Positions 43,243 to 54,455 of a DNA stretch of 64,000 nt are shown in pieces. Location of the stretch: contig JARVJZ010000003.1 of the NCBI GenBank assembly GCA_029775855.1, positions 1 through 64,000 of the forward strand, given 5' to 3'. This DNA is from Nitrososphaeria archaeon (GTDB taxonomy: Archaea; Thermoproteota; Nitrososphaeria; Nitrososphaerales; JAAOZN01). The position numbers were made by a program, and so were the translations under genes. The first letter of the stretch is position 1. Each line of letters starts with the position of its first letter. The notes under the pieces are model-generated. The model saw only the letters and a program-made list of their open reading frames with translations, had not been told where the DNA came from and searched no databases.

Positions 43243-44445
43243 TTAATCTTCATCCTTCTGTGGGTTAAGGTGTGTAAAGTAGTCGGATAAAGCATCTTTT
43301 TGAGTTGAGGCATCATTTATAAGAAGCGCTTCGATCTCCTCTACAAACTCCTTATTAAAGCCTCGTGGAAGACTTGTATTTAGATCAACCAAATCTAGGG
43401 GCCAAGGTAGACCCGTCGCGGGGTTATGGAATGATTTAAAGTATGAGAGTAAAGGCTCTATATCTGTGCCGGCTTTAACCTCAAACTCAAATGGTGGTGG
43501 TTGGTTGCATCTGACAAAGTGTCTTGAGGTGCCTATTATGCGTTCAACAGCGTACTCCAAAGATTTGTGAATAGAGTGCGACACACTACGCTTCGCTTTA
43601 TCATATAGTTGTTCTATATTTCTAACCTTCTTCTCAGACAGCACTGCATAATTGTAGAGTGACTTTATCTGAGCGTAAAAGTTGTATGCTTCTGGGCGTT
43701 CAAATAACCATTCATATGAAAAGTAATGTTTTGGCGGTAGAAGCGCCGTTAGAATGTGCTTGTCATTTGCGCCTACACACATATTGGGGTCTCTATATTT
43801 GTAGAGGAGCCAGCCGTCTATTGCGGTAGATCGGCTTCTTTTTATTACTCCTACTGCTTTTCGCGAGTCCATTAGGGCTAAAGTCTTATCTCTTATGTTT
43901 GAAATCAACTCTCTTCCGAATCTGTATCCATCGACACCTAAAATTTCTTCTCTGACTTTGTATGCAGCGGCTCTAAAGCCAAAGAAACTCCCATCTAGTA
44001 TAACCCAATCTACATCCATTTTTTTGAGGCATGTATATGCAAGTTCTCGTTCAAGGTTAAGCCTCAAAAGCTCAAGTAGGGTTAAGGTGTTGCTGTATCC
44101 TTCGCTCTGCTCCGCTGTGTAGCATCTTGATATGTAGCCTTCATCCACTTGCCGCTTTCCTTCAAATATAAGATATGAAGCGCAGTATGTCCCAACTCTT
44201 ATACCTAATCTCTCACTCGTAGTTGGAGAGTTAGAGCCATCTACCACCAAAACTCTCCAATTTAACCATTCGTCAGAATCTAGAATAGGCTTACCCTTTA
44301 CTACCGAGCTCAAACTTCTTATCTTCTGCTGCATACGCTGCATTCTTGCTTTGCATCTTCTAGCCTCCTCTTCAGCAAGCTTAAAGAATTGATGTTGTAG
44401 CGGTGGTGGGAGCTTAAACCAACTACTCTCTTTGTCGTTAAGCAA
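43243..44445 (-). CDS. nurA: NurA-family nuclease
   Basis: VVDGS, LERELA, ILDGS, VGVIKRS, GLPWPL..VD; adjacent to HerA. Confidence 0.82.
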   Translation of the reverse strand: MLNDKESSWFKLPPPLQHQFFKLAEEEARRCKARMQRMQQKIRSLSSVVKGKPILDSDEWLNWRVLVVDGSNSPTTSERLGIRVGTYCASYLIFEGKRQVDEGYISRCYTAEQSEGYSNTLTLLELLRLNLERELAYTCLKKMDVDWVILDGSFFGFRAAAYKVREEILGVDGYRFGRELISNIRDKTLALMDSRKAVGVIKRSRSTAIDGWLLYKYRDPNMCVGANDKHILTALLPPKHYFSYEWLFERPEAYNFYAQIKSLYNYAVLSEKKVRNIEQLYDKAKRSVSHSIHKSLEYAVERIIGTSRHFVRCNQPPPFEFEVKAGTDIEPLLSYFKSFHNPATGLPWPLDLVDLNTSLPRGFNKEFVEEIEALLINDASTQKDALSDYFTHLNPQKDED

Positions 44446-44446
44446 C

Positions 44447-45874
44447 CTACTTTACCTCAAATGTGATGAGCAGAGGTATAGGAGATGGATTCATGTTACC
44501 CATAAAATAGAAGTGTCCTGGCGGTAGCGAAAGCAAGAACTTTGGGTCTATGTTGAACGGCGAAAGCCAGTTTCCAGCCTCATTTATGTCCAGTGGATGA
44601 ATCTTTCCTACAAACTGAGTGTTCAGATTCCTCCGCACAGCCGCATTTATGCCTATTTCACCAGCTATACCTTGAGACAGTATGCAAATGCAGAGCCTAT
44701 GAGAGCGCCCGAGAGCGCATAAATCTATGATAATATCCGTAGTTTCCCTTTGTATACCATCTGGGTTAAATGGGCAATATTGAGGTCCCTCATCTATAAC
44801 TAGAGCGAGGTTTAGGTCTTCATCGTTCTGCATCAGATCCATTATATATCGAGCGAAGGTCAAGAAGACAGAGAGCTTCTCATCTTTACCCGTCTTCTTC
44901 ATATCAACGATGATGAGCCTACGCTCCTTAACTAGACGAAGTATGTCTTCAGCACTAAGGGTGCCTAGAATAGTTTGGATATCACTGTCCTTCAGCCTAC
45001 GATAACCCCTCTCAAAACGCTGCTGGTCTTCGAAGGGTTTACCTGAGCCTAAGTTTTTTGGATTTAAAGATTTAGTTATGCTTGTGTATAGAACTCTTCT
45101 AAACTCCGCTACACTTAACCCACGCCAACTTTCTGAATATACGAACTCCTCTAGAGCTTGTGTAACCGTGCCTCTTGCCTGCTGACCCGAGTATCCGAAG
45201 CTACCCATCTTCTTACAGAGGTATGAGACAACAGTCTCAGGATCTAAAGCTATATCAGATATGCCTATAATATTCTGCTTCTGATAGTAAGGAGCGTAGT
45301 CACGACCCTTCCAATCCAAGACCAGAACATCAAACCCTGCGTCAAGAAACATTGGTATCAGCTGAAAACGCGCCAAAAACGACTTACCACCACCAGTAGA
45401 AGCGAACACACCTATGTGATAAGGGATAAATGTTTCATCAACAGGGACAAGCCAACCAGGATGCCCCTCATAGTAGCCTACCGTATATCTATGCCTTGCA
45501 CCTGCTAGATAACGCATCGGGTCATCCTTATCTTCGAAAAGATAGACGATTGAGCCTGGGGCAAGTATCTTTTTGTTCTGCTCTATAGTCTCTTTAACTT
45601 CGCCTATAACTGATAATGTGAAGTCATAGGTTTCCTTGGCTGTAGATGGGGGGCCTCCTGCTCTAGCGTAGGCTACCCCTGGGTTATAGCCTCCAGGTTT
45701 AAGGTTTTCGTTGATGCCTCTTCCTCTTCTTAAGACTGCAAGTATCTTGCCTTCGTTCCTATTGTCTACTAGCACAAGGTCTTCTACTTTAACTCTCTTT
45801 TCTTCGGATTGATTAAGTATGACTCTGGCTTCGTTTTCAGAAGATTCACTGGCTATTAGCCCTATTGGTCTCAT
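44447..45874 (-). CDS. herA: HerA-family ATPase/translocase
   Basis: N-terminal HAS-barrel-like region, HIGVFASTGGGKS, VLDWKG, VIDEG, GRS..LSQ, NLNT. Confidence 0.85.
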   Translation of the reverse strand: MRPIGLIASESSENEARVILNQSEEKRVKVEDLVLVDNRNEGKILAVLRRGRGINENLKPGGYNPGVAYARAGGPPSTAKETYDFTLSVIGEVKETIEQNKKILAPGSIVYLFEDKDDPMRYLAGARHRYTVGYYEGHPGWLVPVDETFIPYHIGVFASTGGGKSFLARFQLIPMFLDAGFDVLVLDWKGRDYAPYYQKQNIIGISDIALDPETVVSYLCKKMGSFGYSGQQARGTVTQALEEFVYSESWRGLSVAEFRRVLYTSITKSLNPKNLGSGKPFEDQQRFERGYRRLKDSDIQTILGTLSAEDILRLVKERRLIIVDMKKTGKDEKLSVFLTFARYIMDLMQNDEDLNLALVIDEGPQYCPFNPDGIQRETTDIIIDLCALGRSHRLCICILSQGIAGEIGINAAVRRNLNTQFVGKIHPLDINEAGNWLSPFNIDPKFLLSLPPGHFYFMGNMNPSPIPLLITFEVK

Positions 45875-45884
45875 CTGCTGCCGC

Positions 45885-47600
45885 CTACTCTGATTTTAGA
45901 AGCGAGGTAAGTAGGCTGCTTCTTGTAGCTATTAGAAGCTGGGTCTTCATCTTCAACCCTTTTAAGATCGTAGCTAACCCATTTATCCCAGATTCATCTA
46001 AACCCTCTTCAGGCTCATCTAATAGGAGTAGGGGTGCTCTCTCTAACTCGTTTACCGCTAGTAGAAGAGCAAAGCTTAAGGCTACATTTTCTCCAGTGCT
46101 CATTTGATGCGCATAGATCCAAGTGTCATCTACCTTACCCTTAAGGAATAGCACCTCTTGCCCCCTTACTACCCTACTTTCAAAATCTATGTCTTTGAAA
46201 CGCTCGTATGGATAAATTCTTTTGAAGATTTCCTTAAATGACGATTTGAGCGAAGTAAGGCGTTCACTCCTAGCTTCATTTATAGATTCAATGAGTGTAG
46301 CTTTTATATGTTTGAGCTTCTCAGCAAGATTTTTAAGATTTATGAGCTTCTGCTGTAAAACAGCTTTGTCTTGTGAACCTATCTGAGCTAGAGCCGCCTC
46401 GTATGCTTCTCTCTGCTCTTCTAGGCTGCTTAACCTACTCTCAAGCTGCTCTATCTCTCGCCTAGTTTCCTCTGCTTCCTTTAGCAGCTGTGTTGCTTTC
46501 GATAAATCTTCTTCCGATACGGGTTGCACCTTATATTTCGAAACCTCTGCTTCTAGCTTGCTTATCTGAGTTTCGATGAATCTCCTCTGCTCTAGACCTC
46601 TTCGATACTCCTCTACCTCTTTACTCTTCTGCGCAAGACGGCTCTGCAAGATATTATACTCTTCTATAACCTTCCTATATTCATCTTCAAGATGCTTAAA
46701 GCCTTCAAGAGCCTCTTTCGTCAAAGGAGCATTACAAAGAGGGCAAGTCTGAACATTCATATTCCTCTGCAGATCTATCATCTGTATAGAAGCCTCCAGT
46801 ACAGCTATCCTTCTGTTAAGCGCATCATTCCTAGCCTCCATCTCCCTTAACTCATCCTCAAACCCCTCAGAAGGCTCTGGCAAGGTCTTAAGCTGCATCC
46901 GATAATCCTCAAGCATCTTAACTCGACTTTGCAACTCCAGCTCAGCCCTCCTAACCTCCTCAGCCCTACGTTGAACACCTTCAGCCCAATTTAGCATAGT
47001 GCTATTCATCATATGCTTAAGACGAAGGGTTGCAAGCCTATCTTTGATCTGCTTGATCTCTGAAGCAACTTCGTTGCTCCTTTTCTGAATTTCTTCGCTT
47101 TGCTTAAGTGATGTTAGCTGTCTCTCAATATCATTTATCCTACGCTCTACTGGAGCAGCGGTTATTTCGGATGCGACTTGGTTATATCTTTCGAATCCTA
47201 GAAGCTGACTGATCTTAAGAGCCTTTTCTACTGGCGCACCCACGAAGAGCTTCGCTACCTCTCGACCATCTACAAATATCTTTGAAGAGATGTTAAGCGG
47301 TTCTGGTAGATTCGTCTTTACAGAAACAGAGCCCCCACGCTTCTTTCTCCTCTCGATATAAAAAGGTAAATCGTTGATGCGTCCTTCTACCCTAACCCAC
47401 ATATATTCGTATGAAGTGTTAATAAGATCGTCCAAAACCATATTTGAAGGAGCTTCACCAGAAAGCGCAAAGAGAACAGCAAGAAGGCGTGAAGTCTTAC
47501 CAGAACCCATACTACCCGAAAAGACCGTCAAATCATCTAGAACAAATTCATCCTCTTTAAGACCTCGAAAACCATAAAGTTTAACCTTTTCCAGCCTCAG
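45885..47600 (-). CDS. Short Rad50/SMC-like coiled-coil ATPase with Zn hook
   Basis: LRLEKVKLYGFRG N-terminus, Walker A GSMGSGKT, central CPLC, signature MSTGE, Walker B LLLLDEP. Start extended to CTG at 47600. Confidence 0.85.
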   Translation of the reverse strand: MRLEKVKLYGFRGLKEDEFVLDDLTVFSGSMGSGKTSRLLAVLFALSGEAPSNMVLDDLINTSYEYMWVRVEGRINDLPFYIERRKKRGGSVSVKTNLPEPLNISSKIFVDGREVAKLFVGAPVEKALKISQLLGFERYNQVASEITAAPVERRINDIERQLTSLKQSEEIQKRSNEVASEIKQIKDRLATLRLKHMMNSTMLNWAEGVQRRAEEVRRAELELQSRVKMLEDYRMQLKTLPEPSEGFEDELREMEARNDALNRRIAVLEASIQMIDLQRNMNVQTCPLCNAPLTKEALEGFKHLEDEYRKVIEEYNILQSRLAQKSKEVEEYRRGLEQRRFIETQISKLEAEVSKYKVQPVSEEDLSKATQLLKEAEETRREIEQLESRLSSLEEQREAYEAALAQIGSQDKAVLQQKLINLKNLAEKLKHIKATLIESINEARSERLTSLKSSFKEIFKRIYPYERFKDIDFESRVVRGQEVLFLKGKVDDTWIYAHQMSTGENVALSFALLLAVNELERAPLLLLDEPEEGLDESGINGLATILKGLKMKTQLLIATRSSLLTSLLKSE

Positions 47601-47734
47601 ACTTCTTCTGCCTCCTCCATCAGCCTAACTATAATATCTCTAATCTTACTTGTTGGAGTCTTAAGAAATAGTTCTAAAAGAGCATACTCCTCTTCACTCA
47701 ACCTCTGCCTCAACTTTGCCTCAACAAGGTCCAA
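47597..47734 (-). CDS. 45-aa microprotein heading the SMC-HerA-NurA operon
   Basis: TTG start after GGTGG SD. Sequence MDLVEAKLRQRLSEEEYALLELFLKTPTSKIRDIIVRLMEEAEEV. Its TGA overlaps the CTG of the next gene. Confidence 0.65.
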   Translation of the reverse strand: MDLVEAKLRQRLSEEEYALLELFLKTPTSKIRDIIVRLMEEAEEV

Positions 47735-47785
47735 CCGACAGACCACCTAGCTTGAATGAAATTCTTTCCCTATCTACAACAAAGC

Positions 47786-47803
47786 AATACTTAAAGGTTC
47801 TTT
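47786..47803 (-). promoter_or_regulatory. BRE/TATA promoter candidate for the microprotein-SMC-HerA-NurA operon
   Basis: AAAGAACCTTTAAGTA on the minus strand, about 55 nt before the TTG. Confidence 0.45.
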
Positions 47804-47854
47804 ACCAGTCGAGTCGAAGCTCGAATTTTCTGCACCCACACAAAGAAGCACACT

Positions 47855-48187
47855 CTATTTACCACTTAACTTAAGAAGAAGCTCAATATATCTTTCTAGC
47901 AGATCAAGCAGATCCTTTTGCCGCTCTATAGAGCGTTCATCCCTCAAAGCAAACGCTACTTCAAGAGCCTTAGTCTCTATAATCTCTTTGAGTGAAGGTA
48001 ATTTAGCTTCAAGTTGAAGGGTAGCAGCACTCTCATCTTTCGCTAATCCACAGACTATACAACTAACTTCACCTCTATACTTAATCTGAACACCACCACA
48101 CTTTGGGCAAGGCTCACGCAAAAGAGTAGCACCCTTCCTCAGCATTTCAGAAGCCGCAGCAAGCCGCTCCCTTGACACCGCAACCAT
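47855..48187 (-). CDS. Zn-ribbon protein, Sjogren/scleroderma autoantigen p27 (UPF0148) family
   Basis: ASEMLRKGATLLREPCPKCG...CIVCG. Confidence 0.85.
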   Translation of the reverse strand: MVAVSRERLAAASEMLRKGATLLREPCPKCGGVQIKYRGEVSCIVCGLAKDESAATLQLEAKLPSLKEIIETKALEVAFALRDERSIERQKDLLDLLERYIELLLKLSGK

Positions 48188-48302
48188 TCAACCACCATAC
48201 ATCAAACTCGTTATTTTAATGTTATGCATAGCGTTAACAGAAAAGTTAATTATGAGTGTTAAACTTAACAAGGAAGCAGATTATCAAAGAGGTGGAAACA
48301 AC

Positions 48303-48578
48303 TTGAGCGCCAAAAAGAAGAAGGAAAACCTAGAGAAACTCCAGAAAGCTATAACAACACTACAACAAGTAGCAGAAAGCACAATAACCCCAAGAAACAT
48401 CAGAAAGCTCGTCAAAGACGCTATAGCTATGCTACAAGATGAAGAAACAGCCATATCAGTAAGAGCAGCCAACGCAATAAGCATCCTAGACGAAGTCTCC
48501 CAAGACCCTAACATGCCATCATTTTCAAGAGTAACCATATGGTCTGCAGTCTCAACCTTAGAAAGCATAAGAGAATAA
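48303..48578 (+). CDS. UPF0147 family protein
   Basis: PRNIRK, VRAANAISILDE..QDPNMP..RVTIW. TTG start after GAGGTGG. Confidence 0.88.
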   Translation: MSAKKKKENLEKLQKAITTLQQVAESTITPRNIRKLVKDAIAMLQDEETAISVRAANAISILDEVSQDPNMPSFSRVTIWSAVSTLESIRE

Positions 48579-49668: not shown

Positions 49669-49759
49669 AAACACAACATAAACAAACCACCCCATATAAT
49701 CTTTCCCAAACACAACAGACGCCGTGCATAGATTGCGCCTCCCAAGAGAGGACCATAAA

Positions 49760-52797
<3,038 letters not shown>

Positions 52798-52954
52798 AGT
52801 GATCCTCCCTTTGGAAGCCTACGCAACTATGCACGGCGATAATCGCAGGTGCGTTTCACCTGCTTCGCCCTTCACCCATCAAGATACCTTGATGAGTTGC
52901 ATCTACTTTGGCCGTGTACTCCACTATTCGCAGCTTAGCCCATACTCCAATCTA

Positions 52955-54455
<1,501 letters not shown>

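What the first reader, a model, noticed from the sequence alone, without database searches (positions are those of the whole stretch)
43243..47803. Mre11-less microprotein / Rad50-SMC-like / HerA / NurA operon: candidate undescribed DNA-processing or defence system
Seen: four tightly coupled minus-strand genes (CTGA overlap, 10-nt gap, 1-nt gap) behind their own TATA candidate. They encode a 45-aa protein, a ~571-aa Zn-hook coiled-coil ATPase, a 475-aa HerA and a 400-aa NurA. Neither flank carries a metallophosphoesterase. Established: the canonical archaeal resection operon is herA-mre11-rad50-nurA, with Rad50 usually around 800-900 aa, and SMC-like sensors plus nuclease effectors (Lamassu, Wadjet) and HerA partners occur in anti-MGE systems. 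Inference: this is a paralogous module in which a short SMC-like sensor hands DNA ends directly to HerA-NurA, possibly to destroy linear or foreign DNA. The microprotein may replace the Rad50-binding helix-loop-helix of Mre11.
Basis: partly seen in the sequence, partly recalled or inferred. Interest (0 to 1): 0.82.

Follow-up and report, generated by a model that had tools for sequence, protein, structure and literature searches.

The report
Mre11-less Rad50-like HerA NurA operon
A hot-spring thaumarchaeon and its relatives carry a conserved four-gene operon in which a 45-residue protein and a short Rad50-like ATPase sit in front of a HerA helicase and a NurA nuclease, in a genome with no Mre11 nuclease, so it looks like an undescribed variant of the archaeal machinery that processes broken DNA ends.

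Summary
Four minus-strand genes lie at 43243-47734. They encode a 45-aa protein, a 571-aa Zn-hook SMC/Rad50-like ATPase, a 475-aa HerA and a 400-aa NurA. The junctions are a CTGA overlap, a 10-nt gap and a 1-nt gap.

- **Gene order.** Rad50-like/HerA/NurA are contiguous in 9 of 12 relatives' loci. The 45-aa gene precedes the ATPase in all 11 loci with enough upstream DNA and has dN/dS 0.10-0.25.
- **No Mre11.** The 98.4%-complete genome has no Mre11/SbcD. It has two further HerA/NurA pairs.
- **Not a canonical Rad50.** NCBIfam ranks the ATPase as arcadin-4 117 bits, ASRP 77 and Rad50 about 54, all far below cut-off. PADLOC's best hit is LmuB at 90 bits.
- **HerA and NurA.** Both are very divergent in sequence but have the right folds (Sulfolobus HerA 4d2i, NurA 2ygk).
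- **Microprotein.** A co-fold places it on the base of the ATPase coiled coil, where the Mre11 helix-loop-helix binds Rad50 (ipSAE 0.63, best control 0.00).
- **Context.** The neighbours are housekeeping genes, the locus is syntenic within the genus, and GC is ordinary.

Best reading: a vertically inherited, nuclease-less Mre11-Rad50 analogue coupled to HerA-NurA for DNA-end processing. A Lamassu-like defence role is not excluded. I rate it a new variant of a known kind.

The parts
47787..47804 (-). Conserved promoter-like block (TAAAGAA.CTTTAAGTAT; TATA-like element 47787-47796), 53 nt upstream of the microprotein start
   Evidence: Invariant in the alignment of the window with L022 and L027, which has 72% mean identity. 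Function as a promoter is inferred.
47597..47734 (-). Gene for the 45-aa microprotein (TTG start). Its TGA stop overlaps the start of the next gene.
   Evidence: Present in 11 of 11 loci with enough upstream DNA, at 31-64% identity to the window's copy. dN/dS is 0.10-0.25 in the 4 pairs with unsaturated dS. No Pfam, NCBIfam or PADLOC hit. Predicted to bind the ATPase.
45885..47600 (-). Gene for the 571-aa short Zn-hook SMC/Rad50-like ATPase, starting at the CTG of the CTGA overlap
   Evidence: Invariant motifs: Walker A G-x-G-K35-T-S, Q141, signature S501-T-G-E, Walker B D528-E529. R560 aligns with the H-loop His of M. jannaschii Rad50. The CTGA is confirmed in 3 runs.
46734..46745 (-). Codons for the Zn hook, C286-P-L-C289
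   Evidence: C286, P287 and C289 are invariant in 10 sequences. The position is computed from the start at 47600.
44447..45874 (-). Gene for HerA (475 aa), a divergent thaumarchaeal clade
   Evidence: Pfam DUF87 42.6 bits. A single-sequence PDB search finds nothing; the profile finds HerA 8xau at 1.6e-6 and 4d2i at 2.4e-5. AF2 model has pLDDT 87.9. Foldseek best match is Sulfolobus HerA 4d2i, E 1.6e-22, TM 0.71-0.73. Walker A G161-x-G-K164-S and Walker B D361-E362 are invariant in 29 sequences.
43243..44445 (-). Gene for NurA (400 aa), divergent
   Evidence: Pfam NurA 28.4 bits. Profile against PDB finds T. kodakarensis NurA 9x1l_G at 2.4e-5. AF2 model has pLDDT 83.1. Foldseek best match is Sulfolobus NurA 2ygk, E 4.2e-12. 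D69 (DGS), E132 and D151 (DGSF) are invariant in 9 sequences.

Best explanation
This is a vertically inherited chromosomal operon of a clade of Nitrososphaerales in which amoA was not found; the window's organism comes from hot-spring metagenomes. It encodes a nuclease-less analogue of Mre11-Rad50 coupled to a HerA-NurA resection motor.

Proposed mechanism:
- The 571-aa ATPase dimerises through its CxxC Zn hook and its ATP-bound heads, and recognises or tethers DNA ends (inferred from the family).
- The 45-aa protein is made by translational coupling to the ATPase. [quoted passage not shown]
- The HerA hexamer with the NurA dimer then unwinds and degrades the end to give a substrate for RadA (inferred from the known HerA-NurA system).

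In these lineages the module most likely stands in for the missing Mre11-Rad50 in double-strand-break repair. The two halves are separable: microprotein plus ATPase, and HerA plus NurA.
For: Anatomy and coupling.

Conservation. Family-level ATPase matches occur in 13 of 41 related genomes, spread over families f1, f7, f19, f21, f24, f27 and f28. HerA orthologues of 62-100% identity occur in 13 of 41. ATPase, HerA and NurA are contiguous in 9 of the 12 non-own HerA loci. The microprotein is present in 11 of 11 assessable loci and under purifying selection.

No Mre11/SbcD in the 98.4%-complete genome. The five PF00149 matches are the PolD small subunit, two SbcD_rel_arch phosphoesterases of 251 and 256 aa, and two YfcE-type phosphoesterases. 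NF041031 and TIGR00619 find nothing of Mre11 size.

Complementarity. A profile of the mre11 found next to rad50 in family f6 matches 8 of 41 relatives. Only 1 of the 13 genomes that carry the short ATPase (G315) is among them.

Co-fold. ipSAE is 0.63 against a best control of 0.00. That mark was reached by 58 of 80 solved complexes and 2 of 110 mismatched pairs. The runs agree in at least 97% of contacts, and the partner's pLDDT is at least 84. The interface is ATPase residues 136-154 and 418-447. Passages of PMC5786021 state that the Mre11 HLH binds the base of the Rad50 coiled coil.

HerA and NurA folds and catalytic motifs.

Housekeeping context. Neighbours are an rRNA operon, a histidinol-phosphate-aminotransferase-like gene, UPF0147, a p27-type Zn ribbon and a transporter-like gene. 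Synteny holds within the genus and GC is about 0.43, like the rest of the window. More distant loci sit beside metabolic genes, as read from their N-termini.
Against: - No experiment exists. The complex is a model, and similar Mre11-Rad50 structures are solved, so the pass may partly reflect memory.
- The microprotein shows no sequence homology to Mre11, and no fused form was found (weak evidence).
- The ATPase ranks nearer arcadin-4, ASRP and LmuB models than Rad50 models.
- The module is dispensable in some lineages. HerA/NurA are reduced to fragments in L026. They are absent in L029, where the ATPase and microprotein are intact. NurA is missing in L028/G306. The ATPase is a pseudogene in L033/G308.
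- G313 has the HerA-NurA orthologues without the ATPase.
- G315 has both the module and an Mre11-like gene.
- The genome holds two other HerA/NurA pairs that could serve repair.
- Without the Mre11 nuclease, how blocked ends would be opened is unexplained.
Confidence: 0.5

Rival explanations
1. Lamassu-like defence. The short Zn-hook ATPase with its small partner senses ends or replication structures of foreign DNA. HerA-NurA takes the place of the LmuA effector and degrades that DNA.
For: - The best PADLOC hit of the ATPase is LmuB PDLC03859: 89.6 bits over residues 130-560.
- The coiled coil is short.
- A small gene lies directly before the SMC-like gene, as LmuC does before LmuB. LmuC is proposed to derive from the SbcC-binding C-terminal domain of SbcD (PMC12663957, section 11 read).
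- That paper reports Lamassu in seven archaeal genomes, including Thaumarchaeota (passage).
- HerA partners occur in solved defence complexes (Sir2-HerA, DUF4297-HerA, TdpAB), which are among the fold matches.
- Sporadic loss and decay in relatives.
Against: - No defence-island context in the window or in 5 more distant loci.
- Same position within the genus and ordinary GC.
- Present in every genome of several related families rather than patchily: f1 3/3, f7 2/2, f28 2/2.
- No PADLOC hit for NurA or the microprotein. HerA hits only mad8 at 38 bits, weaker than the genome's other two HerAs.
- No LmuA-type effector.
Confidence: 0.3
2. The ATPase with its microprotein is a chromosome-organising protein of the ASRP/ClsN/arcadin-4 kind. 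Its adjacency to HerA-NurA is a lineage-specific gene-order accident without joint function.
For: - The best NCBIfam models are arcadin-4 (117 bits) and ASRP (77 bits), ahead of Rad50.
- The nearest outgroups in 1.84 billion representatives also score best to arcadin-4 or ASRP.
- ASRPs are described as SMC-related archaeal proteins with coiled coil, Walker motifs and a Zn hook (PMC9389158, passages); the NCBIfam ASRP model is 593 positions long.
- The ATPase and microprotein persist intact where HerA/NurA are lost (L026, L029).
- HerA-NurA pairs of the same clade stand alone elsewhere.
Against: - All scores are far below the curated cut-offs of 860 and 300.
- Gaps of 10 nt and 1 nt within one operon.
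- The order is kept in 9 of 12 loci, in genomes whose ATPases are only about 40% identical.
- The PDB profile search ranks the Rad50 head first (5f3w, 2.6e-17).
Confidence: 0.12
3. A decaying remnant. The CTG start marks an ATPase gene that is no longer translated in this genome.
For: There is no canonical start codon before residue 24. Related lineages show pseudogenisation (L033).
Against: - The 571-codon frame is intact with all ATPase motifs.
- Residues 1-23 are conserved.
- The same CTGA occurs in L022, and the sequence is stable in runs of three studies.
- Three short contigs of one RNA library lie on nurA, herA and the ATPase gene. This is a weak hint, because DNA carry-over is not excluded.
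Confidence: 0.04

Closest known systems
Archaeal herA-mre11-rad50-nurA end-resection operon (Sulfolobus, Pyrococcus, Thermococcus)
   Same: A Zn-hook ABC/SMC-type ATPase is clustered with a HerA hexameric translocase and a NurA nuclease. The HerA and NurA models match Sulfolobus and Thermococcus structures best. The small partner is predicted at the place on the coiled coil where the Mre11 HLH binds.
   Different: No Mre11 nuclease next to it or anywhere in the genome. The ATPase has 571 aa against 834 aa for the canonical Rad50 of related family f6, and it scores about 54 bits on Rad50 models whose cut-offs are 700-1087. The gene order is microprotein-ATPase-HerA-NurA. HerA and NurA are so divergent that single-sequence PDB searches fail or are marginal.
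Lamassu (LmuA/LmuB/LmuC) anti-phage system
   Same: A short CxxC SMC-like ATPase is preceded by a small gene. PMC12663957 proposes that this partner arose by separating the SbcC-binding tail of SbcD from its nuclease domain. The best PADLOC hit of the ATPase is LmuB.
   Different: No LmuA effector or LmuA C-terminal domain; HerA-NurA stands in that position. The microprotein has no LmuC hit. The locus is archaeal, syntenic and in housekeeping context.
Archaea-specific SMC-related proteins (ASRP: ClsN/coalescin, Sph1/2) and arcadin-4
   Same: Archaeal SMC-like ATPases with a Zn hook and a length close to that of the 593-position NCBIfam ASRP model. These are the best NCBIfam models for this protein and for its nearest outgroups.
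   Different: Scores are far below the family cut-offs (117 against 860; 77 against 300). The passages I read do not mention HerA, NurA or Thaumarchaeota: 0 occurrences each in the main text.
NurA-HerA-Mre11 cluster reported for Nitrososphaera (PMC13707971)
   Same: A thaumarchaeal HerA/NurA cluster with an incomplete Mre11-Rad50 set (passages).
   Different: That cluster has Mre11 and no Rad50. This one has a Rad50-like ATPase and no Mre11. The supplements of that paper were not seen.

Membership tests
Canonical Mre11-Rad50-HerA-NurA resection operon | Mre11/SbcD metallophosphoesterase nuclease encoded with Rad50 | tested here: not met
   PF00149, NF041031 and TIGR00619 searches of the whole 98.4%-complete genome find no Mre11-sized protein and nothing on contig C3.
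Canonical Mre11-Rad50-HerA-NurA resection operon | HerA and NurA encoded alongside | tested here: met
   Pfam scores above cut-off. Fold matches to 4d2i and 2ygk. Gaps of 10 nt and 1 nt.
Rad50 (NCBIfam equivalogs NF002244, NF003034, NF002572, NF041034, NF041035) | Score above the curated cut-off | tested here: not met
   38.9-53.6 bits against cut-offs of 700-1087. The f6 Rad50 next to mre11 is also below cut-off, but it ranks Rad50 models first (154 bits).
Rad50 / CxxC-SMC superfamily | N- and C-terminal ABC half-sites, antiparallel coiled coil, CxxC Zn hook | tested here: met
   Pfam SMC_N 55.5 bits (cut-off 40), spanning residues 3-560. Walker A, Q-loop, signature, Walker B and C286-x-x-C289 are invariant. 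The PDB profile's best hit is the Rad50 head 5f3w at 2.6e-17. The H-loop His position is Arg.
ASRP (NF045487) | Score above the curated cut-off of 300 bits | tested here: not met
   76.9 bits.
Arcadin-4 (NF053563) | Score above the curated cut-off of 860 bits | tested here: not met
   117.1 bits, in three stretches.
Arcadin-4 (NF053563) | Encoded in a crenactin/arcadin cluster (feature recalled from memory) | not tested
   No actin-like gene was looked for. The neighbours named are not cytoskeletal.
Lamassu | LmuB SMC-like core | tested here: inconclusive
   PADLOC LmuB PDLC03859 89.6 bits. No cut-off is given, and other SMC-like models also hit.
Lamassu | LmuA effector with its C-terminal domain | tested here: not met
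   None of the four proteins has an LmuA hit. The downstream genes are HerA and NurA.
Lamassu | LmuC partner | tested here: inconclusive
   No PADLOC hit for the microprotein. It has the same gene position and a predicted contact with the base of the ATPase coiled coil.
Lamassu | Protection against phage or virus | not testable with these tools
   Needs an experiment.
HerA (PF01935) | Pfam score above cut-off, HerA fold, Walker A and B | tested here: met
   42.6 bits against 23.2. 4d2i E 1.6e-22, TM 0.71-0.73. Invariant GxGKS and DE motifs.
NurA (PF09376) | Pfam score above cut-off, NurA fold, conserved acidic residues | tested here: met
   28.4 bits against 21. 2ygk E 4.2e-12, TMt 0.64. D69, E132 and D151 are invariant. 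That these are the catalytic residues is recalled, not tested.

The most novel reading that the evidence does not exclude
An archaeal parallel to the origin of Lamassu. Mre11 has been reduced to, or replaced by, a 45-residue Rad50-binding helix-loop-helix. The coiled coil has been shortened. The HerA-NurA motor is wired directly to this nuclease-less sensor as its effector. Such a complex could destroy linear foreign DNA as well as, or instead of, repairing the chromosome. It would be the first SMC-like sensor with a HerA-NurA effector.
Probability: 0.25. Interest if true: 0.8.

Novelty: new variant of a known kind. Interest (0 to 1): 0.6.

Why it matters
Mre11 and Rad50 are treated as an obligate pair in all domains of life, and in archaea Mre11 is recalled as the link between Rad50 and HerA (recalled from memory, not checked here). 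A clade that keeps a Rad50-like ATPase, HerA and NurA but has only a 45-residue protein at the Mre11 position raises two questions. What does the Rad50-type clamp do without its nuclease? How are ends handed to HerA-NurA?

It would also be a natural, minimal example of the split between nuclease and Rad50-binding tail that has been proposed for the origin of Lamassu. The complex is small: 45 + 571 residues, with roughly 130-residue coiled-coil arms by my estimate from the hook and interface positions. It comes from hot-spring organisms, which makes it attractive for structural work.

The CTG (CTGA) start is a testable case of non-canonical or re-initiation start use in a thaumarchaeon.

Tried and rejected
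- **Mre11 translocated elsewhere.** Rejected for this genome. Two small SbcD_rel_arch phosphoesterases exist. One lies behind an Lhr-type helicase C-terminal gene. They lack Mre11 length and were not linked to this operon.
- **The ATPase is a diverged copy of the local thaumarchaeal Rad50.** Not supported. The profile aligns only the first 85 columns with the f6 Rad50. The nearest outgroup P0160 is only 23% identical to that Rad50.
- **Homology of the microprotein to the Mre11 C-terminus.** hhalign probability 0.8%. No longer protein carrying the motif was found among 8000 scored candidates (the tool itself calls this weak evidence). The ESM Atlas gave only unnamed small clusters at 0.85-0.87, below the level that counts. 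For the ATPase, the Atlas lists generic short SMC-like clusters, many of them viral. These are leads only.
- **Bacterial-type promoter and terminator scan.** Counts equal to shuffles; uninformative for an archaeon.
- **amoA search.** Nothing found, but no control genome rang either, so I write only 'not found'.
- **Literature.** The searches found no paper describing this operon; 0 papers hold HerA, NurA, Rad50 and Lamassu together. (MADS) was uninformative.
- **RNA evidence.** One metatranscriptome run holds three short contigs on three of the genes. Contigs cannot show a transcript, and parts without cover mean nothing.
- **Not done.** I built no tree of head domains, because I held no named LmuB, ClsN, arcadin-4 or SbcC sequences.
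Full report
**What is there.** The window is contig C3:1-64000 of a 1.507-Mb, 6-contig genome estimated 98.4% complete. Protein relatives are labelled Nitrososphaerota/Thaumarchaeota or Nitrososphaerales. Near-identical DNA occurs in hot-spring metagenomes; the 15 listed runs come from 6 studies, and one sample may be the source. amoA was not found, but that search had no positive control.

On the minus strand lie four genes:
- a 45-aa gene at 47597-47734, with a TTG start;
- a 571-codon frame at 45885-47600;
- herA at 44447-45874 (475 aa);
- nurA at 43243-44445 (400 aa).

Upstream, a TATA-like block (47787-47796) and an AGGT-type Shine-Dalgarno-like motif are conserved with two close relatives. 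The next genes are a p27-type Zn-ribbon protein, UPF0147, a histidinol-phosphate-aminotransferase-like gene and the rRNA operon on one side. On the other side are a transporter-like gene and a channel-like gene; these two names are read from their sequences, not scanned. GC is about 0.43, like the rest of the window.

**The start of the ATPase gene.** The frame has no ATG, GTG or TTG before residue 24. Yet residues 1-23 belong to the conserved N-terminal strand of the ABC head: L3, F11, R12 and L21 are invariant in 10 sequences. In relatives the ATPase start overlaps the microprotein stop as GTGA (L023, L025, L034) or TTGA (L024, L026, L031, L033). The window and L022 have CTGA. L027 has a GTG one codon further upstream (my reading of the printed junctions). 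Contigs of three runs from three studies cover the junction without any difference. The gene therefore most likely starts at CTG, or is read by re-initiation after the microprotein stop. This is inference.

**What the proteins are.**

*The ATPase.*
- It passes Pfam SMC_N.
- It has invariant Walker A, Q141, CxxC hook (C286, C289), signature S-T-G-E and Walker B D-E.
- The position aligned to the H-loop histidine of M. jannaschii Rad50 is an invariant arginine.
- It is not a canonical Rad50 by model ranking: arcadin-4 117 bits (cut-off 860), ASRP 77 (cut-off 300), Rad50 models 39-54 (cut-offs 700-1087). The 834-aa Rad50 encoded next to mre11 in related family f6 ranks Rad50 models first, at 154 bits.
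- PADLOC's best hit is LmuB at 89.6 bits.
- The family is small. Among 1.84 billion representatives the profile finds 4851 proteins at E up to 1e-3, but only 13 at up to 1e-30. Four of those are full-length clusters. Scores then fall from 616 bits to 140 bits or less for full-length outgroups of about 700-840 aa. The ten outgroups I scanned score best to arcadin-4.
- The word-based search gave 28 proteins at E up to 1e-3 among 8000 scored. Twenty-seven are family members of 545-584 aa.

*HerA and NurA.* Both pass Pfam but are very divergent. Single-sequence PDB searches gave nothing for HerA and E 0.011 for NurA. Profiles reach HerA 8xau and 4d2i, and NurA 9x1l_G. AlphaFold2 models (pLDDT 87.9 and 83.1) match Sulfolobus HerA 4d2i best (E 1.6e-22, TM 0.71-0.73) and Sulfolobus NurA 2ygk best (E 4.2e-12). 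HerA and NurA-like proteins from defence complexes follow in the lists. The nucleotide-binding and acidic motifs are invariant.

*The microprotein.* It has no family hit in Pfam, NCBIfam or PADLOC.

**Is the operon real and conserved?**
- The 14 loci from one genome per species contain the same gene order wherever the contigs allow. All four genes are present in L022, L023, L031 and L032.
- Among 41 related genomes, family-level ATPase matches occur in 13, in families f1, f7, f19, f21, f24, f27 and f28. There are none in the large families f2-f5.
- In a class-wide sample, 2 of 301 genomes match at E up to 1e-10.
- HerA orthologues of 62-100% identity occur in 13 of the 41 genomes. Of the 12 non-own loci, 9 show ATPase-HerA-NurA contiguous, one is cut by its contig end, one lacks NurA and one (G313) lacks the ATPase.
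- A 45-50-aa gene precedes the ATPase in all 11 loci with enough upstream DNA. Its dN/dS is 0.10-0.25 in the four pairs with unsaturated dS; in the other three pairs dS is saturated.

The halves are separable. A paralogous HerA-NurA clade of 44-50% identity stands alone in G285, G317, G310, G319 and G324. In L026 and L029 the ATPase and microprotein are intact while HerA/NurA are fragments or absent. In L033/G308 the ATPase is a pseudogene.

**Mre11 and paralogues.**
- The genome has no Mre11/SbcD.
- Its only other long SMC_N protein is SMC itself, at 1189 aa.
- It has two further HerA/NurA pairs. One is on contig C2, at the contig edge, followed by an HTH_3 protein. The other is on C3 at about 107-110 kb, next to a 963-aa protein with an NPPY motif. 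This third HerA is the closest of the three to solved HerAs by sequence.
- Family f6 has an mre11-rad50 operon. A profile of that Mre11 matches 8 of 41 relatives, and only one of the 13 genomes with the short ATPase (G315) is among them. That profile comes from three close sequences and is narrow, so absence in the relatives is weaker evidence than in the window's own genome.

**The microprotein.** A co-fold of the two alignments gave ipSAE 0.63, with a best control of 0.00.
- The mark was reached by 58 of 80 solved complexes and 2 of 110 mismatched pairs.
- The three runs agree in at least 97% of contacts.
- The partner's pLDDT is at least 84.
- The tool notes that its calibration holds only roughly with my own alignments.

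Microprotein residues 2-43 touch ATPase residues 136-154 and 418-447. These are the two helices that leave and re-enter the head. Passages of PMC5786021 say that the Mre11 helix-loop-helix binds at the base of the Rad50 coiled coil and that Rad50 head constructs need it to behave well. PMC12663957 (section 11 read) proposes that Lamassu LmuC, encoded just before LmuB, derives from the SbcC-binding tail of SbcD. The microprotein thus occupies the same gene position and the same predicted binding place. Sequence homology is not detectable, and because similar complexes are solved, the pass may partly be memory.

**Repair or defence?**

For repair:
- vertical, family-wide presence;
- conserved position within the genus;
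- housekeeping neighbours in the window and in more distant loci, as read from their N-termini;
- ordinary GC;
- near-complementarity with Mre11;
- a hot-spring habitat.

For defence:
- the LmuB-like score;
- the short coiled coil;
- the LmuC-like arrangement;
- repeated loss and decay;
- the presence of other HerA/NurA pairs.

I put repair or end-processing at about 0.5, defence at 0.3, and a chromosome-organising ASRP-like role with accidental adjacency at about 0.1.

**Novelty.** In the searches I found no description of this operon. PMC13707971 (passages) reports the converse cluster, NurA-HerA-Mre11 without Rad50, in Nitrososphaera. The ASRP paper's main text does not mention HerA, NurA or Thaumarchaeota. 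Supplements were closed. I file it as a new variant of a known kind.

**Limits.** There is no experiment, no tree with named references, and no separate model of the ATPase.

Noticed in passing
window 47597-47600: The ATPase gene has CTG where relatives have GTG or TTG in the four-base overlap with the microprotein stop. The same CTGA occurs in L022 and is unchanged in contigs of three runs from three studies. This is a candidate non-canonical start or termination-reinitiation site.
   Followed up: partly
G000:C3:106867-113388 (L003, L004), outside the window: A third HerA (593 aa; the closest of the three to solved HerAs, 4d2i 7e-13) with a 597-aa NurA-like protein (weak PF09376 match, below cut-off). 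It lies directly behind a 963-aa protein carrying an NPPY motif. It looks like a defence-type module. The 963-aa protein was not scanned.
   Followed up: partly
G000:C2:133-3300 (L002, L005), at a contig edge: A second NurA (314 aa) and HerA (494 aa) pair, followed by a 237-aa HTH_3 protein. No Mre11 is beside it, unlike the NurA-HerA-Mre11 cluster reported for Nitrososphaera.
   Followed up: partly
L020 (G000:C1:82013-85306): A 251-aa SbcD_rel_arch (TIGR00024) phosphoesterase overlaps the end of a 420-aa protein with the DEAD_assoc and WH_Lhr domains. This is an Lhr-type helicase plus Mre11-like phosphoesterase pair, and one of the two closest things to an Mre11 nuclease domain in the genome (the other, in L019, gave the only weak SbcD-model match).
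   Followed up: partly
window 49757-54455: The 23S and 16S rRNA genes have GC about 0.58 against about 0.43 for the rest of the window. This fits a thermophile, and the DNA is found in hot-spring metagenomes.
   Followed up: partly
window 45885-47600, residue 560: The position aligned to the H-loop histidine of M. jannaschii Rad50 is an arginine, invariant in the 10 aligned family members (motif A-T-R).
   Followed up: partly
L033 (G308) and L026: The module is decaying in some relatives. In L033 the ATPase frame is broken by several stop codons and HerA/NurA are gone. In L026 only a 50-residue HerA piece and NurA pieces remain behind an intact ATPase.
   Followed up: partly
L060 (G315:C12:207000-222000) and L059 (G310:C54): SMC-like proteins of 828 and 831 aa (best NCBIfam model arcadin-4, about 125 bits) sit among large unannotated genes, including a 1049-aa protein. 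These may be defence islands and are unrelated to the operon studied.
   Followed up: no
window 47855-48578: A p27-type Zn-ribbon protein (PF06677) and a UPF0147 protein are divergently arranged just upstream. They keep this position in the close relatives L022, L027 and L033.
   Followed up: no
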